Shown here: positions 21,845 to 61,624 of the stretch, piece after piece
Numbering within the stretch: the stretch's first letter is position 1
Layout of the letters: every line of letters starts with the position of its first letter
IMG/VR virus record: IMGVR_UViG_3300010160_000003
Location: 36,391 to 100,390 of that record
Source of the DNA: a virus
Strand: one strand, 5' to 3'
Length of the DNA stretch: 64,000 nt
Notes under the pieces: model-generated
The model's input: the letters and a program-made list of their open reading frames with translations, nothing else
Told to the model about the DNA's origin: nothing
The model's database searches: none
Program-made: the position numbers and the translations under genes

Positions 21845-24800
21845 TTATATCCTCCAGTGTTATTGTTCCATCTTTTGTTTTACCAAAACTAAATTTATAT
21901 GCCTTGCCTTCTTCAATATTCATGTAGGCTTTTGGAAATGCCGTTGGAAATACTGTTATAGAGTGTAAGTCTCTGCTGGTATCTGCTAAAGTTAATGAAG
22001 CCATCTTCTTTCCAGCCTTTGTAATTCTAGGCTTAAAAGAAACTACAAACATTTCATTATCTTTATACGGTAGTTGTTTATATCCTAAGAATCTTACAAG
22101 AGCATTTGAAGATCCTTTTATTTCATCAACGGGGATTGCAGAAACAATCCTGTTATCATTTGCAAGAATAAGATAAGTACGACCTGTCTCAATGGTGGTT
22201 GCTTCTTCATCAAATATACCAACGCTGCCCGTTTTATCTAGAATCTCAACTCGTGACCAACCCTTTCCTCGTTTAATTGCCTTGACCATTCCCATTAAAA
22301 TAAATGATCCCTTCTCTTCAAAAGAATCAACATCCTGTATAAATGCGTAGTAGTGAGATGGAATTGTAATGTTAAACTCTGGAAGATTTAAGAACTCGTA
22401 TAAGTTTTCTTTAATTTCTGCATCATTTCGTGGTTGATCTGAGAATGTTGCTCCACCAATAACACGTAATGCATTTAATGCACGGCTATTTACCCCATTG
22501 CCTTTTGTAAAAGTAAACTCTTCAAGTTGTTTATAGGATGTAAATGGACGAGCAGCAATATATTTTTCTGCAATGTTTGTTGATATAAACTTAATACCAG
22601 TCAAACCAAAACGAATACCCTTGCCTTCAATCTTAAAATCTAAATCAGAATCATTAATGTGTGGAAGTTTAATCGGAATGTTCATTCTTTTTGCTTCAAT
22701 TAGATACTCTGTTCTTGCATCCTTATCCTTTTCATTTTTTAAAAGGGCAAACATAAACTCAAGTGGATAATAATACTTTAGCCATGCTGTCCAATAGGAT
22801 AGGGTTGAATATGCTACTGCGTGAGACTTATTAAATGAATACCCTGCATGAGCCTCAAAGTCATGCCATAAATCACGAGCATCATTAGGAGCAATATAAG
22901 CAGAGGCACCAGAAACAAACTGCTCTTTGTATACATCAAACTCTTTTGCGTTTTTCTTCTTACCAATAATCTTTCTAACCTTATCAGCATCCGACATTGA
23001 CATACCACCAAGGTGTACGCAAGCCTGCATAACTTGTTCCTGGTATAAAATACACCCATATGTATCAGAAGTAAATGGCTTCATAATTTGATGACTATAT
23101 GAAACATTTTGCTTTCCATGTTTACGAGCAATATAATCTTTACCAATTGTGTTCATTGCACCTGGACGAACTAAAGCATTAGATGCTGCAAGTTCATCAA
23201 AATTCTTTACACCCATTTTAACTAAAAGGTTTGTATATGGAGTTGCTTCGCATTGAAACACACCCTTTGTGTAACCATCAGAAAGCATTTCATAAACTTT
23301 TGGATCTGCCATATCAATAGATAGTAATTCAATATCTTTATAATGATTTTGTTTAATCATTGATACTGCATCTTGAATAACGCTAAGAGTCTTAAGTCCT
23401 AGTGCATCTATTTTTATAAGCCCGATGCGTTCAGCCTCTTCCATGTCGACACCAACCACAGGTATACGTTCATCAGACCCAGGAGAAGATCTCGTTTCCA
23501 ACGGAGCAAACCTAAAAATTGGATCTTTGCTAGTGACCACACCAGCAGCGTGTATACCAGTACCACGAATACGACCACGTAATTGTTCACCATAAACCTC
23601 CACCTCTGGATATTTTTCTCTAAACTCTCTTGTTGACTTAGAACTACAGAAGTCTTCCCAAGTATCTACTAATTTTAAAACCTTGTTAACATCTGTTAAA
23701 GGAATATCTAAAACTCGTGCAACATCTCGCACAACTCCTTTGTCTTTAAATTGTAAGAAGGTGGCAATAGATGCAACATGTCGATATTGTCTAACTAAAT
23801 AATCTTTAACTTCATCACGGCGAGTATCTTGAATATCGGTATCAATATCAGGAAAGTCGTTGCGATCTGGGTTAATAAAACGGAAAAACAAAAGTCCATG
23901 TTTAATTGGATCAATATCTGTAATACCAAGGCAATAACAAACCAAAGAACCAGCAGAAGACCCACGACCAGGACCAACCATAATTCCCTCTTTCTTTGCC
24001 CAAGCAATCATGCTTTGAACTACAAGAAAGTATGGAGCAAACTTTTTATTTTTAATGATTTCAAGTTCTTCTTCAACTCTGGCAATATACTCTGGGTTAT
24101 CTAAAAGGCCTCTGCTCTCCAAACCTTCATAAGCAATCTTTTTAAGTTCTTTGTCAGGGCTCTTGTACTGTACTGGCAGTAGGTTAAGACCTTCTTGAAT
24201 GTCATAGTCTTCTACTGTATCTGCTAATAATAAAGTGTTTGAGTAGATGTCTGGTCGATCAATACCCTGCAATTCCATGGCTGATTTAATTTCTTTATAG
24301 GACAGAAGGTGTATATCAAACTTATTAAATGTTATTTGGCGGTCTTTACCATAAAGGTAATCAAGTCTATCCATCATAGAAGAATGCTTTGATGCCTTTG
24401 CAAATGTTGTTTCTTTAACAACCTTGGCGTGTGTATTCATTAAAAGTTTAAACTCTTGAATTTCTTTTTGTGAGGGATCAGAATGATGACAATCTGGTGT
24501 AACAATAACTTTAATATTAAACTCATCGGCAAGTTCTATAAGATATTTGTTAATGTGTGCTTCGGTGTGTGGCATTACCTCAATATAATAATCACTGCCA
24601 AAACGTTCTTTAAACCAAGTAATATATTTTTTGGCAAGAGCAAACTCTTCTTCTTCTAATGCTTTTACAAGAACGCTGCTTGGACATGCAGAAGAAACAA
24701 TAATTCCTTCTTTATACTTTTCCAATATAGTAAAATCAAATCGTGGCTTTTTAAAGAAACCATCTGTCCAAGACAGTTCACTAATCTTGTTAAGGTTTTC

Positions 24801-25109
24801 TAAACCTATTTTATTCTTGGCTAGAAGGATAATGTGGTTATAGACAAGATCTTGTTGACCTTCTCTTTCAGACTTATCTCTTGTATCAGAGATATCTGCA
24901 CACATGTATCCTTCTAGACCTAGAATTGGCTTAATGCCCTTTGCTTTTGCAACTCGGTACAGTTCCCTATGCCCAGATAATGTTCCGTGATCTGTGATAG
25001 CCAAGGCTGGCATACCAAGTTCAACTGCTCGGTCTATATATTCTTCTGGAGTAGCAATCCCATCAAACAAACTAAAATGGGTATGGACATGTAAGCCTAC
25101 GTAGTTCAT
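21837..25109 (-). CDS. dnaE: DNA polymerase III alpha subunit (DnaE-type) with PHP domain
   Basis: LHVHTHFSLFDG, ITDHG, GPGRGSSAGS, PDIDTD, HAAGVV, KIDALGL, YQEQ, FNKSHA; start trimmed to MNYVG. Confidence 0.97.
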   Translation of the reverse strand: MNYVGLHVHTHFSLFDGIATPEEYIDRAVELGMPALAITDHGTLSGHRELYRVAKAKGIKPILGLEGYMCADISDTRDKSEREGQQDLVYNHIILLAKNKIGLENLNKISELSWTDGFFKKPRFDFTILEKYKEGIIVSSACPSSVLVKALEEEEFALAKKYITWFKERFGSDYYIEVMPHTEAHINKYLIELADEFNIKVIVTPDCHHSDPSQKEIQEFKLLMNTHAKVVKETTFAKASKHSSMMDRLDYLYGKDRQITFNKFDIHLLSYKEIKSAMELQGIDRPDIYSNTLLLADTVEDYDIQEGLNLLPVQYKSPDKELKKIAYEGLESRGLLDNPEYIARVEEELEIIKNKKFAPYFLVVQSMIAWAKKEGIMVGPGRGSSAGSLVCYCLGITDIDPIKHGLLFFRFINPDRNDFPDIDTDIQDTRRDEVKDYLVRQYRHVASIATFLQFKDKGVVRDVARVLDIPLTDVNKVLKLVDTWEDFCSSKSTREFREKYPEVEVYGEQLRGRIRGTGIHAAGVVTSKDPIFRFAPLETRSSPGSDERIPVVGVDMEEAERIGLIKIDALGLKTLSVIQDAVSMIKQNHYKDIELLSIDMADPKVYEMLSDGYTKGVFQCEATPYTNLLVKMGVKNFDELAASNALVRPGAMNTIGKDYIARKHGKQNVSYSHQIMKPFTSDTYGCILYQEQVMQACVHLGGMSMSDADKVRKIIGKKKNAKEFDVYKEQFVSGASAYIAPNDARDLWHDFEAHAGYSFNKSHAVAYSTLSYWTAWLKYYYPLEFMFALLKNEKDKDARTEYLIEAKRMNIPIKLPHINDSDLDFKIEGKGIRFGLTGIKFISTNIAEKYIAARPFTSYKQLEEFTFTKGNGVNSRALNALRVIGGATFSDQPRNDAEIKENLYEFLNLPEFNITIPSHYYAFIQDVDSFEEKGSFILMGMVKAIKRGKGWSRVEILDKTGSVGIFDEEATTIETGRTYLILANDNRIVSAIPVDEIKGSSNALVRFLGYKQLPYKDNEMFVVSFKPRITKAGKKMASLTLADTSRDLHSITVFPTAFPKAYMNIEEGKAYKFSFGKTKDGTITLEDINV

Positions 25110-25110
25110 A

Positions 25111-25767
25111 CTACCAATCAGCGTTAGTTGATGAGGTAGTAGAAGGGCCATCAAAGCCCAAGTAGAACGCTTCTTGTTCCGCATATGGAATCTTCTTTAG
25201 TGCTGACTCCAATGGATATGGTTCGATTGTTCCCCAGTTAAATGGTTCTTTATCTGGTGCTGAAGGAATTAATGTGTAGTTGGTTTCAGTACCCTGACCA
25301 TTACGCTTTAACTTCCATAATACGTTTGAGATGCTTCCTGTTTCAAGTGCATACTCACGAATAGTATTAAATGATGACTGCTTACTAATTCCCATGTTCC
25401 AAATTGCAACATATGGTGCTTCAATTCCATCATCAACAAGTACGTTGCAATAGAAACGTAGACGGGCTCTCCAGCCAGCCTTCATATCTTTGCGGTGCAT
25501 TTCTTCTGCCCAGTCACGACCTTCTGATTCCATTGTGTCTACAGCCTTGCGCTTATAGTCCTTTGGATTTGTGTGCTCCTTGACAACTAGTGCAAGGCCA
25601 CGCTTTTCGTTATAGTTTGCTGAGTCTTCATCTAACTCCTCAACAAATCGAATCTTTACTGACTGACCGTCTGCAAGTTTTAACCACTTTACTTTTGGTC
25701 CATCATTTTCATACTTTGGCTTTTCGAGCAGGGTTTCTATATTCTTTAATCCCTTTACAATGCTCAT
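25111..25767 (-). CDS. Single-stranded DNA-binding protein (gp32-like)
   Basis: WLKLADGQSVKIRF...KLKRNGQGTETNYTLIP, acidic/aromatic tail; sits between primase and DnaE. Confidence 0.7.
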   Translation of the reverse strand: MSIVKGLKNIETLLEKPKYENDGPKVKWLKLADGQSVKIRFVEELDEDSANYNEKRGLALVVKEHTNPKDYKRKAVDTMESEGRDWAEEMHRKDMKAGWRARLRFYCNVLVDDGIEAPYVAIWNMGISKQSSFNTIREYALETGSISNVLWKLKRNGQGTETNYTLIPSAPDKEPFNWGTIEPYPLESALKKIPYAEQEAFYLGFDGPSTTSSTNADW

Positions 25768-36219: not shown

Positions 36220-36855
36220 TTATACCTCTTCCAGTGTTACCGAAATATTCCAAAGATCGTGGTTTGCTCCACCACGTTTTACAACAGAATAATTAAAATC
36301 TGCAATATAAACCTGCATGATTTGATTGTATTGTGCAAGATGTCCATAGTCTGCATCAGCCTTGCCAAAATTTGAATACTTGTCGTATGCCATAAACATC
36401 CAAAAAGGGCCTGTATGGTTTTCATACCAGTCAAGTATTTCTACTCCGCCTGCTCCACCATCTACTGTAAACTCTCCAGTTGTATTTTTTTCAGGGGACA
36501 AACCAGTAGATAAAAACCCTGCATCTTGATAGTATCCTCTTGATGGCAAGTTATTCCATGAAACAGACATTGTTAGTTTATCTGCTATGTGATATGAACG
36601 CATACGTCCATTAATGGTTCTTTGTCTTTGTTCTATTCTTGTGGGTGTAAAACTTAGTTCCCCCCGATTATGGTCTGACAGAATCAAAAATTGATTAATT
36701 AAATCTGTATCTGTTGATGCATCAAAGTTGCCTTGTACTTCATAGCCAGTGGGCAGATATACCCCATTAGAGAGCGTACCAGGGTTCTCAGACCACAACA
36801 AAGCCTGGGGGCGTTCATACCTACGTCTACCTGTTAAATACGCTGCTGTGGCCAT
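36220..36855 (-). CDS. Distal tail-like minor tail protein
   Basis: Directly after TMP; RTINGRMRSY...SWNNLP...WNISVTLEEV. Confidence 0.7.
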   Translation of the reverse strand: MATAAYLTGRRRYERPQALLWSENPGTLSNGVYLPTGYEVQGNFDASTDTDLINQFLILSDHNRGELSFTPTRIEQRQRTINGRMRSYHIADKLTMSVSWNNLPSRGYYQDAGFLSTGLSPEKNTTGEFTVDGGAGGVEILDWYENHTGPFWMFMAYDKYSNFGKADADYGHLAQYNQIMQVYIADFNYSVVKRGGANHDLWNISVTLEEV

Positions 36856-39800
36856 TATGGTCTTTGTGTCCTAATTCTCTGTGAGTCAACTTGTCTAATT
36901 TGTGTCATAACGACTCTTGCAATATCTTGTGGATTTGCATCAGATTTAACGTTAACGCTTAGATTATAATTATACACCTTCTGGCCACTGTAGGATCCAT
37001 CATTTATAGACTTCATTTTATTAATACCATATGAGTCAACTGCATATTTGCTCATTATAAATTCACCAGGAGTTAACATTGCTGGAACTGTATCTGTTCC
37101 CTTTGCATACCCTCCTACAGCAAAATATTTAGGCATAACCATTCCACCCATATTCATTCTTTGTGGAGGTGCTGGTTCTGCTCTAGTAGTTTTTACTATT
37201 CCACCAGAAGCAAACACTGGTCGTGCTGGAGGTTTTGGCGTTGGCTTTGGCGTTGGAGTTGGTGAAGGCGTTGGAGTTGGTGAAGGCGTTGGAGTTGGTG
37301 AAGGCGTTGGAGTTGGTGAAGGCGTTGGTGAAGGCGTTGGGTTGCCTCGGTCTGGATTATTTGCACCTTCATCTGGATTATGGACTGCTCCATTACCTGT
37401 ATCGCCAGGAGGTGGTGTTGGTGTGGGAGTTGGTGTTGGTGTGGGAGTTGGTGTTGGTGTGGGAGTTGGTGTTGGTGTGGGAGTTGGTGTTGGTGTAGAT
37501 GAAACTGTTGCTAAATATTCATCATAAGACATTTGGTCTTCTGGTGGAAGAGTTGCTTGTAATTTATTCCACGCTGCTCTAGACATTGGCTTTTGTTTAT
37601 TTAAGAAGTTATCAAGTGCTGCACTAGCATTATTCCATCCATCTTTTGCATTTTCTGCAGGATCGGTTAAACTCTTATTAAATGTTAGTTCCTGACCAAT
37701 TAATTCAGCATAAGCAATTACTTGATCTTCTGTAAGTCCCCATTCTGTTGCAAGATCTGTAATTTCTTTAGTAGATAGGTCATCATCTAAAGTTGCAGCA
37801 ACAAATGCAGCATACTTCGCTACTTCGTCATATGGCACTCCCCATTTTTTTGCAAGTGCTTCAATTTGTACAGGAGATAATTCCGTACCTAAAGTAGTAG
37901 TAACAAATGAAGCATATTTCAGAACTTCACTTTCTGTAAGATTCCATGTTGCTCCAAGTTTTGTAATCTCTGCACTAGATAGACCTTTACTTAAAATAGC
38001 AGTAACAAATGCAGCATACTGCTCTGCCTCAGTTTTTGGTACTCCCCAGGCTTCTCCAAGTTTTGCAATCTGTACAGGAGATAATTCCGTACCTAAAGTA
38101 GTAGTAACAAATGAAGCATATTTCAGAACTTCACTTTCTGTAAGATTCCATGTTGCTCCAAGTTTTGTAATCTCTGCACTAGATAGACCTTGACTTAAAA
38201 TAGCAGTAACAAATGCAGCATACTTCGCTGCCTCAGTTTTTGGTACTCCCCATGCTATTCCAAGGTTTGTAATCTGTTGATCAGATAAAGTTCTTCTATT
38301 AAGTTCTAAATAACCCTCAAGATATTGTCTTGCTTGGCTTTGGCTTATTCCCCAGGCTGTGGCAAGTGCTACAACGTCTGCATCTGATATGGCTCCATCT
38401 TTAATTGCCTTTTGAATAAGCGCATATGAGGCTGCTCCTACTGTTGCAAAATCTATTGATAGTTTAAGAAGATCAAACTGTGTAATAATTTCTGCTCCAA
38501 AGATTGCAGCCTTTACTAATAAATCTTGAAAAGCAATAGTTGCAACTTCTGATTCTGCAATTTTTCCTGAAACCTCTGCCCATTGAACCTTTAGATCATT
38601 AAGATATTGCAAATCTCTTGCTTGATTATCTTGAATTACTTTTAGTTTTCCTTGCTCTATCACAAGAAGTGCTTGTGCAGAAGATAACTCTTTATTTGCA
38701 GTAAAAAGATTTAATTCTTTAGCATCACCAATACCATTTGTAATATTATAAATTCTATCTTCAAGATCACGGATATCTAGTAGTATTGCTTTTCTTGCAT
38801 CTTCAAGAGGTTTAATGTTATATTTTTTAATTGTAGCAATTTTTGCTTCAATTGCTTCTCTACCCTCTTCAAGGTCATAGATGTCTTGAGTTATTTGAAA
38901 TTGGGCTTCTTCAATTTGTAATCTGGTTAGACCATTAGCATTTCTTAAGTTTCCAAGTTCTTGTTCTTTTGCTATGTTTAGGGAGTCTCCAGTACCAGAT
39001 GCTGCCCCCTCTGATGCTGTAGATTGTATGTCTTGTGACATTTGTGCTGCTGCAGAAATATCTCCTTGTGATAGAGCATCTGCAAGAGATATTTTTTGTT
39101 TTTCTTGTGCAATTAAGTTTTGATTTAATTCAGAGATTTTACTTAATGCATCTTGTTGTACATCATACTTTTTATTAATTGCCTCTGCTGCATGATCAAT
39201 TATACTTAAATCATTTGATAGGTCAGAAGCCTTTTCTTGTGCGGCAGCAATTGGAATATCAAATGTTTCAGAAATTTGATCTTCATATTCTTTAATTTGA
39301 TCTTCAAAGATTCTTAATTGTCTTGTTACATCTGTTTCAATTTTTACTTGTTTTTCATCTATTTTTGATTGAATTTCATCAATTGTATGCTGAATATCCG
39401 AAACATTCTTTTGTGCTGCTTCAACTACTTTTTGTTTAGCCTCAATTTCTCTTTCTGCAGAAAGTATTGATCTAGCATATTTTCCTTCTACTGCTGTTTG
39501 TGCTTTTGAGAAGAAGTTGTTCATTTCACTTTCTACCTCAGATAATTTATCTTTAAAATGTTGTAGTGGATCTTGTACTTTTCCTAAATTTTCTTGAGCC
39601 TTTTTTAACTCTCTAAATTTTGCAATTAAAGCATCTAGTTCTGGTCCTGGGGCTGCAGCACTTAATGATAAAGCAAAATTTGCATCTGATAACATTTCAA
39701 TTGCTTCTTTAGCAGTTACTCCTGCTGAAGTTAATTCTTTAAATTTGGATTTTTGTTTTTCAATACCAGCAATTGTTACAACTGCAGAACTTTGGAATGC

Positions 39801-42800
39801 TCCAATAACTGCTTCTTTGTATCCTCTTGCTGCTGCAAACCCATCAGTGGTTAGGTTAACAAACTTTTTATTTAACCTATCTACAGAAACATATCCCTTT
39901 TTAACGGCTTCATCTAGTCCACCAACAAAATTAATGAAATCTTCATTTTGACCAAGGTTTGATAGTTCCTGGTTAAGACCTTCAAAGATTTTGATATCTT
40001 GCTTCTCTCCAAGAATTCTTCTAAGTTCAAGCAATCCACCTTCTGCATTAATGGACGCATCTCTTGTTAATTTTAATTGAAGAAGTAAGTCATTTAGGTT
40101 AGTATCTATTGGTTTTACTTCTGCGACTGTTGGTGTTTTAACAACTTTACCGCTACCATCAACAACTGGGTCTCCTGTATATGTTCTTGTTTTTTTACCA
40201 GCAATTTCTGCTATCTGTTGATCTAATGTTTTTGTCTTACCTGATTTATCTTTAGTAATATTATTAGTCTCAAGAAATTTATTTCTTTTTATTGATGCTT
40301 GACGGGAGCCTAGTTCGGATGGGCCGCTTTCTCCTATTTGTTCTTGAGCATAGTCTTGAATATATTTTCTTTTTGCATTATCATCTTCAAACTCAACTGC
40401 GTAGATACTAATATATCTAGAAATTGTTTCTTTTTTAAATTCATCTGGTAATGCAGCAAAATCTTTATATTGTTTTGTTAGTTGTTCAAGGTTTGCAATT
40501 GATGAACTGTCTTTGTGGTCTTCTATAAACTTTGAAAGAATTTCTTTAGTTATTGGAGTTTTAATGCTATCAACTTGATCAAGAAGTGCAGAAAGTTCTA
40601 ATAATTTTTTATTATTCTGTTTAGTTAATCCTGTTAGTGCAACCTCAAGATTAATTTCACTTCCATCCATTGATTGTAAAAGGGCAATTGCTTTTCCTGT
40701 TTTATCAAATTCTGCTGGTTTCATTTTAATCATGTCAATAACTAACTTAGTGGATAATTTTTTATCTGATACTCCTCCAAGTAATTGTGTTATCTCTGAT
40801 ATTTTTGCAATACCGTGAGTTTTTACTCCAAGTTCAAGGTTTGAATCTAATTCTCCTAATTTACCAGCAAAAAGGTCCATCATTGCAGTTGTCTGTTCAG
40901 GATTTAATTGTCCGCTTGCCATCATTAAGTTCATTTTTACTTCAAAGTTTTGAGCCTTTGCTGAAGTTTCAAATCCTGCTTTTGAGTATTGTGATGTTGA
41001 AGTTCCAAATCCAATATCACTTAGTTTAGCCAGTTTGCTTTGAACGGTATTGGCCTGTGTAGCAAATAAGGTATCCTTATATCTATCTTTTACTTGACCT
41101 TTTAATGAATCAAAATATGCACTTTTACTAGAATTCATATGCATTAAATTTGCTATATCAACTGCCCCTTTATTGCCACCTAAGAATGAAGGGAAAGATT
41201 CTTTTGGATTATTAAGTGCTGGATTTTTTGCATTCTTAAACTGTTTCATTGCAAGATTAAGAGATTGTGCAGTTCTAGCATTTGTCTTTTCTGTATCAAT
41301 TCCTTGCTGCACAGTTAAACCAGCAATTTTTTCTTGTATCTCTAACTGTTTTTCTTTATTAGACGTTATTAAAATTTCTTTTGATAAAGACTCAATTTGC
41401 TTTTGTGTTATTTGGTATATAGCATCTGCTTGGGCTTGAGCAAGAGCAAGGTTTTGTACACCATATGAAGCCAGTTGTGCTGCTGCAGCATTATCCTTAA
41501 TGCCACCTGAAACAATATTTTTACCTGCTTGCTCTGCAGTATCAATTAAGTTCATTCTAACCTTAATTGGGTTTTTAAGAATATCGCTTCCATCTGGTCC
41601 GACTAACATTCTTAACTGTCCCTCAACATTTGCGGTAAATGTCTTATCCCCTAGATTAGTTCCAATTTGATCACCAATACTATTTGCTTGCTCTGCAGTA
41701 AGGATTCCATCTGAAATATATGCTGCTAATTGCAAAGATAATTCTTTTGCTGCTGCTGCTGCACCATTTTTTTCTATGCTTGTAAATACGCCAGCATTGA
41801 CTGTTTTTCCAACTTCACTCTTTAGGAAGGTATCTCCAAATCCGCTTCCTTGTCTGTTATAGTCATTATAAGATTGAAGAGATCCCGCTTCTTTTTTCTT
41901 TGCAGTTAATTGAGATGCACCAACTGTATCAGTTAATACACTTATCTCTTCCATTTTCTTTGTTGTTGCAGAAATAGATGCAACATACTGTCCTTGCCTT
42001 ATAGCAGCATCTTTTTGCATTTTTTGATAAATTAACATTCCTGCACCAACTGCAACAACTGAAGCAGCAAGAATTGAAAATGTACTAGTTAGCATTGGTA
42101 AAATTCCAAGTAAGGCTGAGGCTGCAAATAGACCAGTTGTTACCTTTTCATTTCCACCAGTCATAGCACTTGCCATTCCTAGTCCACCCAATGCACCAGA
42201 GCCCATTGCTGCTTTCCCACCCATACCCTGTTTTGGTGTTTTTTCTGCTAAAGGAGCATCTGCTTTTCCTGGAATTCTGTATGTAACTTTTGGTGTTTGA
42301 ACAACTTTCTTTCCTTTTGGAATAGTAGTAATTATTGTATCTTTTGGACTTCCGCTTGAAGATTTAACATTTACAGGTTTCTTTTTTCCTTTTATTGGTG
42401 TTACCTTTTTAGTTTTTTTATCTTGTAAAGATTCATCCTTTGTTACCAAAACAGCAGAATGCATTTTATGGAATTCTCTCCAGTCAACCTTTCTTGCTTC
42501 TTCAAGTCTATTTATCATTGCTTGATACATTGATTTTTCTTCTGCATTTAAAGTCCAACTTGAAACAAGGTTTTTAAGTTTTGGAAGTGTTTTATCAATT
42601 TCAGAAATCATAGATGAGTTATAAGCATCAGGCGTCATATTTTTTGGAATATCCATTGTTGATTCAGCAAAGAATCTTTTTGCTCCACCATTAACACCAA
42701 GTAAATTAATTCTTGCTTGTTCTGCCATAGACTTCATATTTGTTGAGAATTCTCTCTTCCCAGATGCTTTATCAAACACTCCTGCAGTTCCTACATCTGC

Positions 42801-45800
42801 AAGAACATTTCCTGAAAGGTTTCCAGCATGAAGATCTTTATCACCACGAAGGTTTGCTGCTACTAGTTGTTTGAAGTATTCATCTTTTGTAAATTTACCA
42901 GTAAAATTAGATTCTGCAAATTTTGGATTAAACTGTGATTCTAACGCAAATAATTTTTTACCAGTTCTTGGATCTTGAATAACCTTTATGCTTTGAACTG
43001 GAGACTCTAATCCATGAACTTCTCTAGCAATTTGTGTTGCACGAATTTCTGCAAGAGCAGCCTTTTCATCCATCATGGCTTTTACAAAAACTTTTGATCC
43101 ATTTTCTTTTTCATAAACACCGCTTATGTGATTAGCATCAATAAAACTAAATCCAGATGATCTAGATACTTGTTTTACATATTTTGTTATAGAATCATTT
43201 TTAAATCTACTGGAGTTAACATCTTTCTCTGTTTCTAAAAACACCTTTTGTCTTTGAGTTTCTTTTTCTAAAGCAATTCTTTCTGCTTCTTTAAGAGCAT
43301 TTTTATTTATTTTTATTTGTCTTCCACCACCACGATTAACTCTTCCAGTCTTAAATCTATCGCCAATTAAGACACCAACATTTTTAGTGCCAGAGAATGT
43401 TCCAGTTTTACTACTAATTTCAGGTCTTTCATATGCGGTAATATTACCTGAAGAATCTCTTTGTACAGGAATCTTATAGTTTGAATCAAGTTTCATTACT
43501 GACTCTAATGCTTTAATTACTGACTGGCTTGTTTTTGTTTTTTTAACTTTATCAATAACCTCTGAAATAGGAGCATCAGGTGGGCTAAATTTTATGTTTG
43601 AAGAACCTCTTGGGCTAATTGCAGCAGGAGCATATAGTTTTTTTACTCCTTCTGTTAATTTTCCTCCAGCACCTTCTTTAATAAGATTACCAAGAATTCC
43701 ATTTTTTTCATCTCCCATTCTTGAATAAACATCTTGGTCTCCAATAAAAGTTGATGGATTTACGTCTAAAAATGATTTTATTAAACTTGTTCTTATTTTT
43801 TCACTAGTTTTATTTGCATCTTCTGGAGAAAAACCATCACCTATAAGTCTTGCGTTCATTGTATTTATTGCAGAGGCTTTTTCTATTTCTTGTAAATATT
43901 CACCAAGAGTTATTTTAGAATTAATTAATTTTGCATTTGTTTCTGGACTAACATCAAAACCAACTGCTGTATATGCATTTGCTTCAGCAAATCCAAGTTT
44001 TTTTATATTTTCTGGAAGGTTAGAACCTGTTAATGTTTGAAAATTTACTGCGTGAGCAAATACTGTTTTATTTGGTTTAACTTCACTTGTTCCTTCTGCA
44101 AATCCCTGCATTTTTCCATCAATTAAACCTTGTATTAATGCTCTTGCATATGGTTGCTGCATAACATCTTTTGTAACAACTGCTTCGCCAGGCTCTAGCA
44201 TTGCTGGAATAGTATCACCATTTCCAGAACCTGGGACCATCGATATACCACCTGCAAGTTTTCTAACTTTATTTCTTGATGCTGTTAACTTTCCTGCATT
44301 GGCTGTTTTTCCTGCAACTACTTTAGCACCACTAACCATCATACCTGGATTTGCCATAGCAAATTTTGCTGCTGCAACTGTTGCTTCAACATATGCGTTT
44401 CGCAAAAGTTTAACTGCAACTGTTTCTAATTCAAACTTTTGAGTTAACTGTGTATGAGCCTGATTAAGTGATGCTGCAACAGTGGCTGCCTCTAACTGTT
44501 CTGCATTTAAATAGTTTGTTTGTTCAGCAAGAATTTTTGAATTTCCGCTAAGTTTTAAGAATCCACCACGCATTGCAAGAAATAGTTTAATTATGTTTGC
44601 AGCACCATTAGCAAGTAAACCAAATGTCATAAGAAGAACTGGACCAATTACTCCAACAAGCGTTGTTGCAATTACTATAAACTTTTTAGTTCCATCACTT
44701 AAATTATTAAATTTTTCAAGAAAGTTTCCAATTACTTTAACTATTGGAGTAATCGCCTCTAAAAATGTTTTTCCAATTGGGGCAATTGAAAGTTTTAGTT
44801 GTTCAATTGATGCTTTAAAATTTGTTCCAACAGCATCTTCTATTGTTTTTAATTCTCGTTCTGATAAAATTGCAAGTTCTTCTATTGATTTTCCTGTTAA
44901 ACCTAAAACCACACTTGCTTGTGTTCCATCTTTTGCTACGTTTTGAAATAAAGTTGATAGTCTTGAGAATTGAAACTTACCAAATAACTGTTCAATTGCT
45001 CTTGCTCTTTGTAATGGGGCCAGTGTATCTAATGCTTGTGCAAACTGGATAACAGTATTTTTAATATCTCCTTGATTACCTTCAACAATACCTTTGATAT
45101 TAATGCCAAGACCACTAAGCATTGCACTTGCTTTTGCTGATGGGTTAATTAATGATGCAAGTCCAGACTTTAATGCGTTGGCACCTTCTGATGCATTGAT
45201 TCCACCTTCTTTCATGGCGGTAAGGAAAAATGCAAGATCTTCTACATCTCCACCAAGTTGTTTAATAACTGGTCCTGCTTTAGGAATAGCAATAGTTAAG
45301 TCTTCAATAGAAAGAGTTGTTTGGTTTTCAACAGCATTTAAAAAATTAATCTTAGTTGATAGTTCATCTGCTGCTATACCAAATGCATTTGTAAGAGATA
45401 TTGTTGTTTCAAGTGCAGCAGATTGCTCAACCCCGCCAAGTACTGCAAGTCTAGTTGCTTCTGAAACCTGTGCAGTTAAGTCTGATCCAGTCTTACCCAT
45501 TGCTGCTGCTGAAGCAGCCATTTCCATAGTTTTTGATACTGCAACACCATACTTTGTAAAGCCATCTGCAAGTTGTTGAACATCAGCAAGTGCCTTATTT
45601 GTTTGTGCACTTGTTGTAAACATATCTCCATAAACACGTTTAAACTTTACTGCTTGTGCTTCCAAGTCCATAAATGTTTTTGCAGCCATCGAACCAAAAT
45701 ACAGAAGAGGAACAGTAAAACCAACCATAAGTTGGCGACCTGCCCACTGTGTATTTTTACCAAAATTTAAAAGACTTGTTGATCCTTGTCTTACAACTTG

Positions 45801-46307
45801 ATTAAAAATTGCCTGTTTTTGTGCAGCAAGTGCAGTTTTTGTTGCATAATCATTCATGTTTAAGGTTTTTGGCGTAACAGCCATAGCCTTCATTGCACCG
45901 TTTGCATCACGACCCATTTTAATATATTGGGTTTGCATTTTCTTGACACGTTCTTCTGCTACCTTGCCAATTGTGTCAAATTCAGATCTAAATAGTTTTC
46001 CAAAAGTTTTTGAAGCACCGCCTGCATAACGGAAATACTCACGCATAGAAAGTTTATTAGTCTCTAATGCGTGAGTAAATGACTCCGTCGATGATCTAAC
46101 ACTACCCATTGTTGCAGTAAATTTGTTAGTGGCATTAATGGAATTTAAAAGATTATTTTGTAATCCTTTTTGTGCTAATGCTGCTGATTGGCTATTTTTT
46201 GCTACTGATGCATGAAATAATGCAATCTGACGTTGTAAAACCTTGAGTTCGGCTAATGCTGATGAGGCATTTATATTTATGCCTATATTAGCATTAACGT
46301 CACTCAT
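36855..46307 (-). CDS. Tape measure protein (3150 aa) with inserted kinase-like cargo domain, Trp repeats and Pro/Thr tract
   Basis: TP901-type core ([32 protein letters not shown]), coiled coils, TM segments; follows the tail chaperones. Confidence 0.93.
37232..37496 (-). repeat. Two 18-nt minisatellites encoding (TP)n and (TPSPTP)n in the TMP
   Basis: Plus-strand GGTGTTGGTGTGGGAGTT x4+ (37414-37496) and GGTGAAGGCGTTGGAGTT x3+ (37261-37340). Confidence 0.9.
37867..38252 (-). repeat. Near-perfect 204-nt tandem duplication inside the TMP
   Basis: Blocks starting TGTACAGGAGATAATTCC at 37867 and 38071 are almost identical over about 180 nt. Confidence 0.9.
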
Positions 46308-53896: not shown

Positions 53897-55504
53897 TTAT
53901 TGAGACGATCTACCCTCTCCAGCAGGATTACGCCCAGCAACTGTACTTGGAGAGTCAGAGTTGTTATTTGTTCTTTGTGCATCTCTTGCCCTATTGCCAG
54001 CAAGGTTTGCAGCGGCATCTGTAGCCTGTCTTGGAGTCATAATAAATGGAGTATCTCCATCTTTACGTAGTGGCAAATCAAGAGCCTGACGAGCCTCATT
54101 TGGCATCATAATCTGAGTCTTAACAAGCCTTTCAAGAATCTGTGATTGAGCAATTTCATCTGTTAATGTTAGTTCATTAAACTTAAGTTCAAGAACATCT
54201 GTTTTTTCTTTAATAATTTTGTTAACAACTTTTTCTAAATGATGTTGTGCTGGTCTGGCAACTTGCTCTTTAAATGTACGATCTTGTGAAAGTGCTGCTG
54301 CTAAACCAGACTCTGAGCCACCAAGTTTAGATATAGGTACTTGATGGGCAATTAGAATATCGTCACGATTTTGTTTACGATATTCTTTGAAAGATCCCTC
54401 TTGAATACCGTTTTCAATTGGCTCCATTTTAAACTCAACCTTGTTCTGGTCTGTATCTCCAGGGAGTGGAATATAAAGGGTTCTGTGAGACTGCGACTTA
54501 AGACCAGTCTGTAAAAATCTAAACATTTTATCTTCTGCGTCTCCAGAAAGTTTTGCACCCTTTAAAGTAATGATGTATCGTGGTACAGCCTTGTTTTCAA
54601 AATAATCAATGTTGTATCTTGATGCTAGTTGATCACCAATTAACGACGGCATTGCAGAAACAATATCTGGAATCCCATAATAAGTATTTAATGGAGAGTA
54701 TGACTTAAGATGAATAATTTCATTTGCACGGCTATCTGCTGTTACTGGATTCGTATTACTTGCACCAAAATTTCTAAAATAAACAACAGCCTGACCAATA
54801 ATCTGAAGGTAGCCATCATTAAGTCTACGAACACGAACAGTAGTCGCTGGGATATGCCCAAGATATCCAATCTCGCCCTTAGTAGTTCTGCCTATTTCAA
54901 TAAAACCATTGCCTGTTGCTTCAACATCTGTATAAACCTTTTCCATAACTTTTGTAAAAGAATCATCATCGTTAAGGTTTTCTAGCCAATCACGAAGTTC
55001 AATCTTGGCTCTTTCAATTCTGCTTCTTGCTCTACCAGTTGCGCCTTCATCTTCTGAAGTTTCTAGTCTTAGCGCAGTCCTATCTGTAATGTCAAACCTA
55101 TAACCAAGACCTACAATGTTTTCTACCTTTGCATCAATTGCAGCGTGGTTTGAAAAACATGTATCATAAAAATTTGCAAGTTCATACATATTATATGGTG
55201 GAGTAATTACGTCAAATAGACCGTATCCATTTCTGTATACCGTTCCAGGATTAAGTGCTTTAGAGCCAGCATCGTCTGCTCCAGAAGGAGTTGCATTTGC
55301 TGAGTCTAGATATGCTGCTGTTGGAGAAACTGCTTTGCTAATCTGTCTTACTATACGACGGCGAAAGTTTTGATCTAAGCCAGTGTATTCTTTAAGTTCT
55401 TCCCAGTTTTTATTAAATGGGTCACTTAACTTAAACTCATTATCTTTTTCTTCTTGAGTATTTAGACTTGCCCTAACATACTGGAAGTTATCATCATCAG
55501 TCAC
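53897..55504 (-). CDS. Portal protein
   Basis: HAAIDAKVENIVGLGY, YYGIPD, YFENKAVP, AHQVP, PNEARQ; likely GTG start at 55504. Confidence 0.92.
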   Translation of the reverse strand: MTDDDNFQYVRASLNTQEEKDNEFKLSDPFNKNWEELKEYTGLDQNFRRRIVRQISKAVSPTAAYLDSANATPSGADDAGSKALNPGTVYRNGYGLFDVITPPYNMYELANFYDTCFSNHAAIDAKVENIVGLGYRFDITDRTALRLETSEDEGATGRARSRIERAKIELRDWLENLNDDDSFTKVMEKVYTDVEATGNGFIEIGRTTKGEIGYLGHIPATTVRVRRLNDGYLQIIGQAVVYFRNFGASNTNPVTADSRANEIIHLKSYSPLNTYYGIPDIVSAMPSLIGDQLASRYNIDYFENKAVPRYIITLKGAKLSGDAEDKMFRFLQTGLKSQSHRTLYIPLPGDTDQNKVEFKMEPIENGIQEGSFKEYRKQNRDDILIAHQVPISKLGGSESGLAAALSQDRTFKEQVARPAQHHLEKVVNKIIKEKTDVLELKFNELTLTDEIAQSQILERLVKTQIMMPNEARQALDLPLRKDGDTPFIMTPRQATDAAANLAGNRARDAQRTNNNSDSPSTVAGRNPAGEGRSSQ

Positions 55505-55895
55505 TTTCGTACGCATCCCTTCCGTGTGTTTTTAATGTCTTCTGTGCATCTGCAATTGCACCAAGGTCATTCACGTTTGGAATTAACCCTTGCCTCATTC
55601 TATCTTTTTGTTCTGAGTACTCTTCTTCAGATACCCTGGTTAATCCAGCAACAAAATGCGCTGTTCCCGTTCCATCATCACCATTAAATACTGCAGCCCT
55701 TTTAAGTTCTGCAATTTTTGAAATGTCACCTTTTTGAGCAGGAACGTTTAATACAGAGCCCGTTCCATCAGTAAACCACTTTCCGTTTGATTTCTTATAT
55801 ACGTATAGGCCCCAGTCATAATGCTTATCAATCACCTTACGACGTACATTTTCAACAATAGGTTTGCCAGTTTTTGGGCTAAATAAAGAATCCAT
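55497..55895 (-). CDS. Conserved hypothetical protein upstream of portal
   Basis: ORF track; ATG 55895 lies 7 nt after TGGTATACT. Confidence 0.7.
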   Translation of the reverse strand: MDSLFSPKTGKPIVENVRRKVIDKHYDWGLYVYKKSNGKWFTDGTGSVLNVPAQKGDISKIAELKRAAVFNGDDGTGTAHFVAGLTRVSEEEYSEQKDRMRQGLIPNVNDLGAIADAQKTLKTHGRDAYESD

Positions 55896-59590: not shown

Positions 59591-61624
59591 CTAATATAAT
59601 TTAATCTCACAAGCATCTGTTGAGCAGTATTTTTCTGATTCTGCATCTAAATTATCTTTTCCATCATAAATTGCAGACCAATCAATCTTTCCAATTGTTC
59701 CAACGTAAGAGTTGTACTCTTCCCTGGTAATCTCTGTATAAGGCTGTTGGAGATATGTTTTGTTTCCCATTGGAAGAAATGAGACTGCCTTTAGTTGACC
59801 CTCATACATATTTAAGGCTGGAGCAATAAACTTTGTTTCTTCTTCTTTGTCAAATGAAAGCGTAACAGAAACTCCATTGTCAGACCAATACTTCTGTGCT
59901 GTTGCTGCCAAACCAATTTTTTCAAATAGACTAACTTGCTTTTCAGAACGTTTGTGTCCTGATGCAACTGGGAAGTAAACTACTGAGGTATTTGCTGATA
60001 CAACATCGTCTTCAACTTTATATCCCGCCGCTTTAAATAAATAAATCATTGGATCGGTATTGCCAAAACGAATAGCACGAAGATAAAACTCTCCACCAGG
60101 ACCCCAATGAACTCCAGGTGTTGCCCCAGATAAAAGAGAAACAGATCCTGAAGGTTTAACGGTAGTTACACGAACGGATTCACGAACACATAGCCACTCT
60201 GAATACTTGTGGTCATAGTGACGAATCTTATTATATCCCTCATCCATCCACTCACGCAATGCTGGTAGACCGCTAGTGTCTGCAAAAGATGCAATGCCTG
60301 TTAGGGATGTTCCAATGCGACGATTTCTTTGCATAATGCCATTTGTCTGTTGCCAATGTGTTGGCATTAACGTTACAGTCTTTCCATACAAATATGCAAA
60401 CTTTAGTGTCTTAAGGAAGTCCTCTTTAGACTCATGACGATTTAAATGCACTTCTACAAGTGTGCAAAGTTCATAAGATTCTAAGGGTTGTTCAGCACAT
60501 GGATTAAATCCCATAATTCTGGAATCTTTATAATCTGGTGCATCTTTTAATCTTCCGTATTCTCTTGCTACATCTAACCAAATAAATCCTGGCTCTCCGT
60601 TGTCTGCAATTAAATCTACATAGTCTTCATATTTTGTTCCAACTGTTGCTGAAATAGAATTATTAGACATCCAAGCCCAGCCTGGTTTTTCTGGATCATA
60701 AGAGTTTCTTTCTGGAAACACTTCTGGGTTTTTAAGATTAATAAAACCTTCATCTTCTGCTGCGCCAAGTGCAAGGGTAGCAGAACGACGAACATTTCCA
60801 GAAACAACACATGTCCCAATTAAATTTACTAAGTCAACAATTGCACGGCTATCTAATAGTTCCCCCGCCCTAGAGCCAATTACATTTCTAATACGTGTAT
60901 GTAGTTCAATTAGTGGTGCTGGACCGCTGGCTACCCCTCCAAAGCCTTTAATGGGTGATCCTAGAGGACGGATAAGGTCATAGGTAAACTCTTGAATAGA
61001 CTGGTTTTGACGGAGGTATGAATTTATTAAATACCGCACAGATTCAACCCAACCCTCACGAGTATCTGGTATTTCATAAACTACTGCTGGCTCTGTAGGT
61101 GCATAAATAGACATTTGTTTGTCTTGGCCAAGGGTATCAAATCCAACTCCAATACCCAGCATTAATGCATCCATTACCCAAGCAAATAATGCACCAGGAT
61201 CATTACGATCAATATCTCTGGTTGAAACCATTGCACAATTTTGAAGGGATGCTGAATTACGCTTCTCCATAGTCATAGGAGTTCCAAATGCCCAAAGACC
61301 ACGACCTGGTGGTGTCCATTTTAATTCAAACATTCTTTGAAAGGCTTCTTGGGCAGACTTCTGAGCCTTGTTATCATTCCAAGGTAGACGATTGTCTTTA
61401 GCATGATTTTTTTGAACTGAATACATACCCTCAATTACACGACGACAAACTTCATGCCAGCGTTCTTTTGTCCCGTCTTCTTTAACACGAGAATATGTAC
61501 GAATAAATGTAACCTCTCCTAATGAGTTAGACCCTGCATCTGAAAATCCAAATGGTGCTGGGATGGTTTGATATTTATTTACAAATTCTTCTGATAGACG
61601 AAACGAGAATATGGTTTCTGACAT
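59591..61624 (-). CDS. nrdJ: Class II (adenosylcobalamin-dependent) ribonucleotide reductase
   Basis: TPPGRGLW, LQNC, GNVRRSA, NPCAEQ, TTVKPSG, C-terminal CSTDAC. Confidence 0.93.
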   Translation of the reverse strand: MSETIFSFRLSEEFVNKYQTIPAPFGFSDAGSNSLGEVTFIRTYSRVKEDGTKERWHEVCRRVIEGMYSVQKNHAKDNRLPWNDNKAQKSAQEAFQRMFELKWTPPGRGLWAFGTPMTMEKRNSASLQNCAMVSTRDIDRNDPGALFAWVMDALMLGIGVGFDTLGQDKQMSIYAPTEPAVVYEIPDTREGWVESVRYLINSYLRQNQSIQEFTYDLIRPLGSPIKGFGGVASGPAPLIELHTRIRNVIGSRAGELLDSRAIVDLVNLIGTCVVSGNVRRSATLALGAAEDEGFINLKNPEVFPERNSYDPEKPGWAWMSNNSISATVGTKYEDYVDLIADNGEPGFIWLDVAREYGRLKDAPDYKDSRIMGFNPCAEQPLESYELCTLVEVHLNRHESKEDFLKTLKFAYLYGKTVTLMPTHWQQTNGIMQRNRRIGTSLTGIASFADTSGLPALREWMDEGYNKIRHYDHKYSEWLCVRESVRVTTVKPSGSVSLLSGATPGVHWGPGGEFYLRAIRFGNTDPMIYLFKAAGYKVEDDVVSANTSVVYFPVASGHKRSEKQVSLFEKIGLAATAQKYWSDNGVSVTLSFDKEEETKFIAPALNMYEGQLKAVSFLPMGNKTYLQQPYTEITREEYNSYVGTIGKIDWSAIYDGKDNLDAESEKYCSTDACEIKLY

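What the first reader, a model, noticed from the sequence alone, without database searches (positions are those of the whole stretch)
42450..43200. HipA/PI3-PI4-like protein kinase domain embedded in the tape measure protein
Seen: within the TMP lies SGVYE...KVFVK (ATP-binding Lys), AEIRA (helix-C Glu), GDKDLHAGN (D-x-H-x-x-N catalytic loop, 42819-42836) and LADVG (DFG/IDHG-like). Established: this motif order is that of HipA/CtkA/PI3K-like kinases, and TMPs are ejected into the cell at infection. Inference: the domain sits between two hydrophobic TMP segments (~44590-44680 and ~42030-42230), so it could enter the cytoplasm before phage transcription. It would then act as a virion-delivered kinase for host takeover or anti-defence, with the TMP carrying swappable enzyme cargo much like MuF/polymorphic toxins.
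Basis: partly seen in the sequence, partly recalled or inferred. Interest (0 to 1): 0.88.

Follow-up and report, generated by a model that had tools for sequence, protein, structure and literature searches.

The report
Kinase-fold cassette inside phage tape measure
The 3,150-residue tail "ruler" protein of this uncultured 100-kb phage, probably of actinobacteria, carries an optional ~300-residue module that folds like an atypical kinase and keeps every catalytic residue, so the virion may bring a ready-made kinase into the host with its DNA; neither activity nor delivery has been tested.

Summary
Window 36855-46307 (-) is one 3,150-aa tape measure protein (TMP). Residues ~1036-1290 carry the motifs at the stated coordinates, between two hydrophobic segments.

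- **Fold:** the AlphaFold2 model (pLDDT 83) matches almost only protein-kinase-like folds. CotH scores Z 11.9; CtkA, MavQ, LepB, PI4K, HipA and Vps34 score 8-10.
- **Conservation:** in 130 representative homologues the Gly-loop Gly, K1076, E1087, N1163 and D1171 are invariant, and D1158 is kept in 129/130.
- **Correction:** the "H" of D-x-H-x-x-N is not conserved. No Pfam, NCBIfam or PHROG model matches, and an E. coli HipA profile comparison also fails. This is a new sequence family, not a HipA or PI3K member.
- **Distribution:** about 700 clusters were found, and every long member tested is a giant TMP. No cultured phage has it.
- **Optional cassette:** of 126 TMPs with a 78-98% identical N-terminus, 53 carry it and 73 lack it, through a clean ~310-aa indel. 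The flanking segments vary.
- **Precedent:** Thermus phage P23-45 has a TMP-fused virion RNA polymerase.

Delivery, activity and substrate are inferred only. This scan has already noted the same domain on many other genomes.

The parts
36855..46307 (-). Tape measure protein gene, 3,150 aa (P0001)
   Evidence: Single open frame. Pfam PF10145 E 1e-23 and PHROG tape-measure families over the N-terminus. 31% identical over aa 55-663 to the annotated TMP of Streptomyces phage Tomas.
44979..45557 (-). PhageMin_Tail core domain, aa 251-443
   Evidence: Pfam hit, 84.6 bits against a cut-off of 33.2.
44598..44687 (-). Hydrophobic segment 1, aa 541-570
   Evidence: Kyte-Doolittle 19-aa mean up to 2.3. 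Present at the same place in most relatives.
44175..44252 (-). Gly-rich ...[11 protein letters not shown]... module, aa 686-711; end of the strongly conserved N-terminal part
   Evidence: The regex finds 375 copies in 238 relatives and 0 in the reversed sequences. Collinear homology with kinase-less relatives stops at about aa 745.
43296..44075 (-). Variable insert upstream of the kinase cassette, aa ~745-1004, fold unknown
   Evidence: The tested segment aa 712-1035 is shared by only 14 of 276 relatives and is replaced by other sequence in the nearest relatives P0152 and P0002. The AF2 model has pLDDT 68.9. Nothing in the fold searches reached a meaningful score: Foldseek E>=0.23, VIA Z<=4.8.
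43203..43295 (-). Long lead-in helix of the cassette, aa ~1005-1035
   Evidence: Helix 2-31 of the model, pLDDT 83-88. Homology with other kinase-bearing TMPs resumes at aa ~1005-1020.
42438..43202 (-). Protein-kinase-like domain, aa ~1036-1290
   Evidence: AF2 pLDDT 83.4, pTM 0.80. VIA-align: CotH 5jda Z 11.9 (216 aa, rmsd 4.1), and 47 of the top 50 rows are kinase-fold proteins. CtkA Z 10.2, MavQ 9.4, LepB 9.2, HipA 9.2. All of Foldseek's top 50 are kinases.
43113..43127 (-). Gly-rich nucleotide loop I-S-G-V-Y, aa 1061-1065
   Evidence: G1063 130/130 and Y1065 126/130. It lies on strand 63-66 of the model.
43080..43082 (-). K1076, predicted ATP-binding Lys (strand beta-3)
   Evidence: 130/130. 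It lies in strand 72-78 of the model.
43047..43049 (-). E1087, predicted helix-C Glu
   Evidence: 130/130. It lies in helix 81-97 of the model.
42819..42836 (-). Catalytic loop D1158-L-H-A-G-N1163
   Evidence: D1158 129/130 and N1163 130/130; H1160 varies. The loop follows helix 141-154 of the model.
42789..42797 (-). D1171-V-G1173, the DFG equivalent (metal-binding Asp)
   Evidence: D1171 130/130 and G1173 127/130. It lies only 8 residues after N1163, behind a short beta hairpin.
42225..42437 (-). Lys/Pro-rich linker after the kinase, aa 1291-1361
   Evidence: Low pLDDT in the model.
42024..42143 (-). Hydrophobic segment 2, aa 1389-1428, preceded by a Gly/Ala/Met-rich stretch
   Evidence: Homology with kinase-less relatives resumes at about aa 1360.
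37050..37097 (-). Second copy of the ...[11 protein letters not shown]... module near the C-terminus, aa 3071-3086

Best explanation
Residues ~1005-1360 of this tape measure protein are a self-contained, optional cassette. It has a complete phosphotransfer set: Gly loop, K1076, E1087, D1158-x4-N1163 and D1171-x-G.

Shown here: the fold, the conservation, the restriction to giant TMPs, the presence/absence pattern, and the position between two hydrophobic segments.

Inferred: the TMP leaves the tail ahead of the DNA and its hydrophobic segments enter the host membrane. The kinase module then refolds at or near the cytoplasmic face, where ATP is available. There it phosphorylates a host target before any phage gene is expressed. 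A protein substrate is somewhat more likely than a lipid. Because close relatives do without it, it is an accessory function (host takeover or counter-defence), not a structural part of the tail.
For: - **Fold:** the AF2 model has pLDDT 83.4 and pTM 0.80. In an unbiased structural search, 47 of the top 50 chains are kinase-fold proteins. CotH scores Z 11.9 over 216 residues, and 16 chains score Z>=8. The second look gives CtkA 10.2, MavQ 9.4, LepB 9.2 and HipA 9.2. All of Foldseek's top 50 are kinases, led by LepB.
- **Catalytic residues:** they sit on the expected elements of the model and are invariant in 130 representatives that diverge to 21% identity. 281 of 282 members keep the D..N..DxG loop.
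- **Carrier:** 164 clusters at 50% identity and 698 clusters at 90% identity were found. The long ones lie inside 2,000-4,400-aa proteins, all carry PF10145 where annotated, and no free-standing family appears.
- **Optional cassette:** 53 of 126 near-identical TMP cores have it and 73 lack it, with median lengths of 2,818 and 2,484 aa. P0167 and P0296 differ by a clean indel. There are at least 8 gains or losses on the N-terminal tree.
- **Position:** 193 of 238 long relatives have hydrophobic segments on both sides.
- **Precedent:** Thermus phage P23-45 gp96 carries a virion RNA polymerase in the N-terminal part of its TMP, an enzyme that must act in the cytoplasm (PMC10770324). Kinase domains are also predicted in head-packaged polyvalent phage proteins (PMC5512222). 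The best viral structure matches are such large ART-, MuF- or portal-fused phage proteins.
Against: - No activity, virion or delivery data exist, and no cultured phage carries the domain.
- Three folded ~30-kDa domains are hard to fit into a tail-tube lumen. The module would have to travel unfolded or metastable and then refold. This is my inference from general knowledge.
- The charge distribution around the two hydrophobic segments does not indicate which side is cytoplasmic.
- Structural neighbours include both protein and lipid kinases at similar Z, so the substrate class is open.
- The N1163-D1171 spacing (8 residues) is shorter than in the kinases I know, and the D+2 residue varies.
- The model rests on an alignment of only 17 sequences.
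Confidence: 0.55

Rival explanations
1. It is a lipid kinase rather than a protein kinase. Tethered between the two membrane segments of the ejected TMP, it phosphorylates a host membrane lipid at the entry site. Phosphatidylinositol, which actinobacteria make, is the candidate. It would thereby change local membrane properties or signalling.
For: MavQ (PI 3-kinase, Z 9.4-9.6), LepB N-domain (a PI kinase by my knowledge; Z 9.2, 18% identity, Foldseek's top hit), PI4KII-alpha (9.3-9.4), PI4KIII-beta and Vps34 (8-9) are all among the best matches. The language-model search independently pointed to LepB_N clusters. The host is probably an actinobacterium: the genome has a WhiB gene, the portal and TMP core are nearest to Streptomyces phages, and the single genome hit is an Acidimicrobiaceae MAG. 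The position next to membrane segments fits.
Against: The best match is a protein kinase (CotH, Z 11.9), and CtkA and HipA score as high as the lipid kinases. The Pfam PI3_PI4_kinase and LepB_N models do not match. The His typical of PI3K/PI4K loops is not conserved. The host's lipid composition is unknown.
Confidence: 0.2
2. The domain works in the producing cell, not the newly infected one. It would act as a late-expressed kinase or ATP-dependent switch during TMP handling or tail assembly, and may be cut out before the TMP enters the tail.
For: A folded kinase domain does not obviously fit inside the tail tube (my inference). In the producer cytoplasm the TMP is a soluble, chaperone-bound protein with access to ATP. 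Gly-rich ...PAML.PGE... modules recur along these TMPs and could be processing sites.
Against: Seventy-three of the 126 closest TMPs lack the cassette, so tail assembly does not need it. A kinase needed late could be a separate gene, yet the exhaustive search found no free-standing form. It always sits inside the TMP, usually between the two hydrophobic segments. The recurrent module directly flanks the kinase in only 44 (upstream) and 26 (downstream) of 238 relatives.
Confidence: 0.15
3. It has a kinase fold but different chemistry, or no catalysis. It could be an AMPylase or other nucleotide transferase (as in some kinase-fold proteins), or an ATP-binding module that serves as a folding or energy device during ejection.
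For: Kinase-fold proteins with non-kinase activities are known (my knowledge). The family has unusual features: a short N..D spacing, an extra invariant G-x-S-F loop before the Gly loop, and D1156 nearly invariant next to D1158.
Against: The full canonical set for phosphotransfer, including the catalytic-base Asp (129/130), is retained at canonical spacing D+5=N. Nearly all structural neighbours are phosphotransferases.
Confidence: 0.12
4. The motifs are a chance constellation in a low-complexity helical protein, and there is no kinase domain.
For: No sequence-family model matches.
Against: The model is confident and globular, the list of kinase matches is homogeneous, and the five key residues are invariant across hundreds of clusters.
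Confidence: 0.02

Closest known systems
CotH, atypical Ser/Thr kinase of the Bacillus spore coat (PDB 5jda; Pfam PF08757)
   Same: It is the best structural match: Z 11.9, 216 residues, rmsd 4.1. It has the protein-kinase-like fold with Lys, a catalytic Asp and a metal Asp; D228 and D251 are the residues mutated in PMC7821199.
   Different: Sequence identity is 7%. The PF08757 model finds nothing in this genome and Pfam finds nothing in the domain. The Asp-to-Asp spacing is 23 in CotH and 13 here. CotH is a free-standing cellular protein.
CtkA / HipA / PI3K-PI4K / MavQ / LepB-N group of atypical kinases
   Same: The fold class is the same, with Z 8-10 over 180-226 residues. LepB is Foldseek's top hit, E 5e-4.
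   Different: The His of D-x-H-x-x-N is not conserved. hhalign against E. coli HipA gives probability 0.06%. PF00454, PF18640 and the other kinase models do not match. The N-to-D hairpin is shorter.
Thermus phage P23-45 gp96: tape measure protein fused to a virion RNA polymerase (PMC10770324)
   Same: A giant siphophage TMP carries, in its N-terminal part, an enzyme that can act only in the cytoplasm. The authors propose it stays associated with the TMP pore.
   Different: The enzyme is an RNA polymerase, not a kinase. It is experimentally characterised. It belongs to a different phage lineage and host.
Kinase domains of phage and plasmid polyvalent proteins (Iyer et al. 2017, PMC5512222) and the T7 protein kinase
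   Same: They are phage kinases proposed or known to modify host proteins early in infection. The polyvalent ones are thought to travel in the virion. The best BFVD structure hits are large ART-, MuF- or portal-fused phage proteins.
   Different: Those domains are described as lacking the whole C-terminal subdomain and as occurring in Verrucomicrobia, Chlamydia and Bacteroidetes elements. This one has a helical C-terminal part and sits in a TMP, which that paper does not mention. The T7 kinase is expressed after entry, not carried in the virion (my knowledge).
Tape measure proteins with embedded cell-wall hydrolase domains
   Same: They are enzyme domains embedded in a TMP. For example, the TMP of Streptomyces phage Tomas, the nearest cultured relative, has a C-terminal Peptidase_M23, and relative P0140 has both M23 and the kinase.
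   Different: Those enzymes act outside the membrane and need no ATP.

Membership tests
Phage tail tape measure protein (PF10145 / TP901 type) | PhageMin_Tail core domain in a very long, largely helical protein encoded between the tail chaperone genes and the distal tail genes | tested here: met
   PF10145 at 84.6 bits against a cut-off of 33.2. PHROG tape-measure families reach E 2.6e-98.
Protein-kinase-like (PKL) fold superfamily | Two-lobed fold with a beta-sheet N-lobe, helix C, catalytic loop and metal-binding loop | tested here: met
   The AF2 model has pLDDT 83.4. 47 of the top 50 VIA rows and all 50 top Foldseek rows are kinase-fold proteins, with best Z 11.9.
Protein-kinase-like (PKL) fold superfamily | Conserved beta-3 Lys, helix-C Glu, catalytic Asp + Asn (D-x4-N) and D-x-G Asp | tested here: met
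   K1076, E1087, N1163 and D1171 are 130/130 and D1158 is 129/130. 281 of 282 members keep the loop. Residue-level superposition on a solved kinase could not be inspected.
PKL kinases in general | ATP binding and phosphotransfer activity | not testable with these tools
   This needs biochemistry.
HipA (HipA_C) kinases | Sequence-profile similarity to HipA | tested here: not met
   hhalign of A1 against E. coli HipA gives probability 0.06%. There is no Pfam hit at E<=1.
HipA and PI3K/PI4K kinases | Conserved D-x-H-x-x-N catalytic loop | tested here: not met
   The His position (1160) is S, Q, G, A or K in most members; only D and N are kept.
PI3K/PI4K catalytic domain (PF00454) | Match to the family model | tested here: not met
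   There is no hit for the window's domain or for 16 relatives. The only weak hit (E 0.0082) lies in a different, downstream stretch of P0137. Fold similarity is Z 8-9.4.
CotH (PF08757) | Match to the family model | tested here: not met
   Six-frame search of the genome finds no match at E<=10, while the control genomes respond. Pfam scan finds none. It is the best fold match only.
LepB_N (PF18640) | Match to the family model | tested here: not met
   There is no match at E<=10. Structural similarity is Z 9.2 at 18% identity, and there is a language-model lead.
Polyvalent-protein kinases of Iyer et al. 2017 | Loss of the whole C-terminal subdomain; occurrence in MuF-type polyvalent proteins | tested here: inconclusive
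   The model has a helical C-terminal part, helices 194-284, and the carrier is a TMP. Their alignment was not available for direct comparison.

The most novel reading that the evidence does not exclude
The giant tape measure proteins of this group of (probably freshwater actinobacterial) phages are modular injection vehicles. Behind a conserved core they carry exchangeable cassettes of cytoplasm-acting enzymes. The kinase cassette stays tethered between two membrane-inserted segments. It phosphorylates a membrane lipid such as phosphatidylinositol, or an envelope-associated host protein, at the DNA entry site before any phage gene is expressed.
Probability: 0.2. Interest if true: 0.85.

Novelty: new variant of a known kind. 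Interest (0 to 1): 0.66.

Why it matters
Tape measure proteins are usually treated as rulers and channel formers that at most carry cell-wall hydrolases. One experimentally studied case (P23-45) shows that a TMP can bring a cytoplasmic enzyme, an RNA polymerase, into the cell.

A conserved, apparently active kinase module in hundreds of uncultured TMPs would extend that to post-translational or lipid modification of the host at the very first moment of infection. Current annotation misses it entirely: these proteins are labelled only "TP901 family tape measure" or "hypothetical".

The natural pairs of nearly identical TMPs with and without the cassette offer a ready-made comparison for experiments.

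Tried and rejected
- **Sequence-family searches of the domain:** Pfam, PHROGs and NCBIfam gave no family.
- **PDB by sequence:** phmmer gave only marginal hits to PKC C2 domains, which are chance. The profile search gave nothing relevant.
- **Cultured phages:** tblastn against 50,697 records found no match at E 1e-3, and only an irrelevant hit at E 4.
- **Free-standing homologues (79-1,141 aa):** 18 short proteins, mostly on very short contigs (12 of them under 3.5 kb), so probably gene fragments.
- **Six-frame searches of this genome:** CotH and LepB_N models found nothing. FHA and PP2C partners were also absent.
- **hhalign against E. coli HipA:** no similarity.
- **Topology by positive-inside rule:** no clear asymmetry.
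- **Are the ...PAML.PGE... modules universal borders of the kinase cassette?** Rejected. They are adjacent upstream in 44 and downstream in 26 of 238 relatives, and not adjacent in this window.
- **Upstream insert (aa 712-1034):** the model has only moderate confidence, and nothing in the fold searches reached a meaningful score: Foldseek E>=0.23, VIA Z<=4.8, mostly the terminal helix. No relatives were found in viral contigs by pattern search.
- **Host assignment through genomes:** the first genome-contig scan found nothing, and the alignment A1 was too divergent for the tool. The second scan found one Acidimicrobiaceae MAG contig, which may be a mis-binned phage contig.
- **Nearest relative P0152:** a PDB sequence search found nothing.

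Full report
**What is there**

The finding lies inside one uninterrupted 3,150-aa ORF on the minus strand (36855-46307). It is a tape measure protein (TMP):
- Pfam PhageMin_Tail matches at aa 251-443 (84.6 bits).
- Several PHROG tape-measure families match over aa 10-672.
- The gene sits in a tail-gene block of a complete 100,390-bp IMG/VR virus record with direct terminal repeats.

The genome also encodes a portal, a DnaE-type polymerase, a class II ribonucleotide reductase and a WhiB-family protein. The portal (44-45% identity) and the TMP core (about 31%) are closest to ~130-kb Streptomyces siphophages of the Stanwilliamsviridae. The only hit in species genomes is a contig binned with an Acidimicrobiaceae MAG. 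An actinobacterial host is therefore likely but not shown.

**The observation**

All five motifs are at the stated coordinates, and so are the two hydrophobic segments at aa 541-570 and 1389-1428.

**Is it a kinase domain?**

Sequence-family libraries are silent: Pfam at E<=1, PHROGs, NCBIfam, and PDB by sequence and by profile.

An exhaustive phmmer search of 1.84 billion representatives found 164 clusters, 139 of them at E<1e-30. Almost all lie inside proteins of 2,000-4,400 aa. A search of the 90% clusters found 698, annotated only as PF10145, "TP901 family tape measure" or "hypothetical".

I aligned 130 domains that cover the whole module (pairwise identity 21-99%, median 42%):
- Invariant in 130/130: G1052, G1063, K1076, E1087, P1103, Q1147, N1163 and D1171.
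- D1158 is kept in 129/130 and G1173 in 127/130.
- Of 282 members that cover the loop, 281 keep D-[LVIM]-x3-N-x(7-9)-D-x-[GS].

An AlphaFold2 model of aa 1001-1326 is confident (pLDDT 83.4, pTM 0.80). It shows the kinase order of elements: N-lobe strands, helix C, two more strands, a helix, the catalytic loop, a short hairpin, the D-x-G, then a helical C-terminal part. The conserved residues fall on the expected elements.

Structural searches agree:
- A search of 48,161 representative chains that does not depend on Foldseek returned kinase-fold proteins in 47 of the top 50 rows. CotH scored Z 11.9 (216 aa, rmsd 4.1), MavQ 9.6, PI4KII-alpha 9.4, CtkA 9.1, Fam20 8.8, Vps34 8.5 and HipA 8.4.
- Re-alignment of Foldseek's list gave CtkA 10.2, MavQ 9.4, LepB 9.2 (18% identity) and HipA 9.2.
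- Foldseek's own top 50 are all kinases, led by LepB.
- A protein-language-model search independently pointed to LepB_N-bearing clusters.

The fold and an intact catalytic set are thus well supported. I could not inspect a residue-by-residue superposition.

**Which kinase family?**

None of the known ones by sequence.
At that position the family has S, Q, G, A or K.
- hhalign of the family alignment against E. coli HipA gives probability 0.06%.
- The CotH and LepB_N models find nothing in the genome.
- No member of the alignment reaches a Pfam kinase model with this domain.
- The Asn-to-Asp spacing of 8 residues is unusually short. An invariant G-x-S-F loop precedes the Gly loop.

I therefore treat it as a new sequence family of the atypical wing of the kinase-like superfamily. 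It is structurally nearest to CotH.

**Is it cargo?**

I searched with the N-terminal 680 aa and tested the hits locally with an HMM of the domain.
- Among 126 TMPs whose N-terminus is 78-98% identical to this one, 53 carry the domain and 73 do not. Median lengths are 2,818 and 2,484 aa.
- The difference is a clean indel. P0167 (kinase at 983-1299) aligns with kinase-less P0296 over 1-963/1-966 (79% identity) and again over 1275-2738/976-2482.
- This window's TMP aligns with kinase-less relatives over aa 1-~745 and from ~1360 onward.
- On a tree of 291 N-terminal regions, presence or absence changes at least 8 times, against 60-70 for shuffled labels. The cassette is therefore mostly inherited but was repeatedly gained or lost. 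Its distance from the N-terminus changes at least 40 times. The set mixes proteins fetched through the kinase with proteins fetched through the N-terminus, so the proportions are not population estimates.

The segment just upstream in this phage (aa ~745-1004) is a further variable piece.
- The tested segment, aa 712-1035, is shared by 14 of 276 relatives.
- In the nearest relative P0152 (93% identical over aa 1-744) it is replaced by 745 aa. These contain a second copy of the ...PAML.PGE... module and a weak, full-length match to cytidylyltransferase-like domains, E 0.022 and below the cut-off.
- Its own fold remains unknown.

Other relatives add further domains:
- a HAD phosphatase after the kinase (P0145);
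- an M23 peptidase (P0140);
- a second, different PI3/4K-like stretch (P0137);
- a borderline GNAT (P0360).

So modularity is shown. A confidently identified alternative enzyme in exactly the kinase's place is not.

**How it probably works**

Shown: the domain is optional, catalytically intact, and confined to TMPs. It usually lies between two hydrophobic segments (193 of 238 long relatives).

Established elsewhere: siphophage TMPs leave the tail at infection. In Thermus phage P23-45 the N-terminal part of the TMP is a virion RNA polymerase that transcribes pre-early genes. The authors propose that it stays at the TMP pore (PMC10770324).

Inferred: this cassette is carried in a non-native state in the tail and refolds at the cytoplasmic side of the membrane, where ATP is available. 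It then modifies a host target before phage transcription. The substrate class is open. Protein kinases (CotH, CtkA, HipA) and lipid kinases (MavQ, LepB, PI4K, Vps34) are equally near. A membrane-tethered phosphatidylinositol kinase is an attractive but unsupported variant for an actinobacterial host.

Rivals are use in the producing cell, and non-kinase chemistry on a kinase fold. The charge-based topology test was inconclusive. The genome has no FHA or PP2C partner.

**Known or new?**

Full-text searches for kinase domains in tape measure proteins found none described. Iyer et al. 2017 describe kinases in polyvalent, probably virion-borne proteins. Those lack the C-terminal subdomain, occur in other bacterial lineages, and TMPs are not mentioned. 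The best matches among predicted viral structures are large ART-, MuF- or portal-fused phage proteins and phage "PI3/4-kinase catalytic domain" proteins. This fits a shared pool of ejected-protein cargo, but I did not test it further.

I rate this a new variant of a known kind: an enzyme carried by a TMP, and a virion-borne phage kinase.

This scan has already recorded the same domain on many other genomes, with the same closest structure. One of those notes gave me the P23-45 lead, which I checked in the paper.

Noticed in passing
window 43203-44171 (-), TMP aa 712-1034: The segment upstream of the kinase is shared by only 14 of 276 relatives. It has invariant short motifs (T-x-F-A-H-A, G-F-D, E-R-P-E). 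The AF2 model has pLDDT 68.9 and a mixed alpha/beta fold, and nothing in the fold searches reached a meaningful score (best VIA Z 4.8).
   Followed up: yes
relative P0152, aa ~745-1490 (no locus held): The nearest relative (93% identical over aa 1-744) has a different 745-aa segment in the same slot. It contains a second copy of the ...PAML.PGE... module (aa 986-1052). It also has a weak but full-length match to Pfam CTP_transf_like (E 0.022, 15.4 bits, below the cut-off) with a G-x4-P-F-T-K-A-H stretch.
   Followed up: partly
relative P0137, aa 265-296: A fragmentary relative carries a second, different kinase-like stretch downstream of the family kinase. It has D-T-H-P-G-N and D-L-G, and hits Pfam PI3_PI4_kinase weakly (E 0.0082).
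   Followed up: partly
relatives P0145, P0140, P0360: Other enzyme domains occur in TMPs of the family. P0145 has a HAD acid phosphatase after the kinase (E 1e-6). P0140 has Peptidase_M23 (E 1e-22). P0360 has a borderline GNAT (19.9 bits against a cut-off of 20.7).
   Followed up: partly
window 44175-44252 and 37050-37097 (-): A Gly-rich ...[IV]PAML.PGE[AF][VI]... module occurs twice in this TMP and 375 times in 238 relatives (0 in reversed controls). It directly flanks the kinase only in a minority of relatives. Its role is unknown.
   Followed up: partly
window 37787-38277 and 37235-37510 (-): Near the C-terminus of the TMP there is a 102-nt (34-aa) tandem repeat of about 4.8 copies (as a 204-nt unit, 2.4 copies at 89% match). 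There are also Pro-Thr/Pro-Ser microrepeats with periods of 6 and 18 nt.
   Followed up: partly
window 4315-4488 (-): A WhiB-family gene is present (PF02467, 47.5 bits against a cut-off of 23.6). This family is typical of actinobacteria and their phages, so it hints at the host.
   Followed up: partly
L013 (CAYVOK010000043.1, 20.5-kb contig of an Acidimicrobiaceae MAG): This is the only hit in 185,579 species genomes. It is 51% identical to the kinase domain and lies inside a >2,268-aa open frame at 38-40% GC. It is probably a phage contig binned with the MAG, and could be a host clue.
   Followed up: partly
BFVD matches to model m8cced21fa916: The best viral structure matches are large ART-, MuF- or portal-fused proteins of Mycobacterium and Gordonia phages, proteins of haloarchaeal tailed viruses, and phage proteins named PI3/4-kinase catalytic domain (E 6e-6 to 1e-3). 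This suggests related kinase-fold cargo in head-packaged proteins.
   Followed up: no
window 21837-25184, 53897-55516, 59591-61624 (-): The window also encodes a DnaE-type DNA polymerase III alpha, a portal protein and a class II (B12-dependent) ribonucleotide reductase.
   Followed up: no
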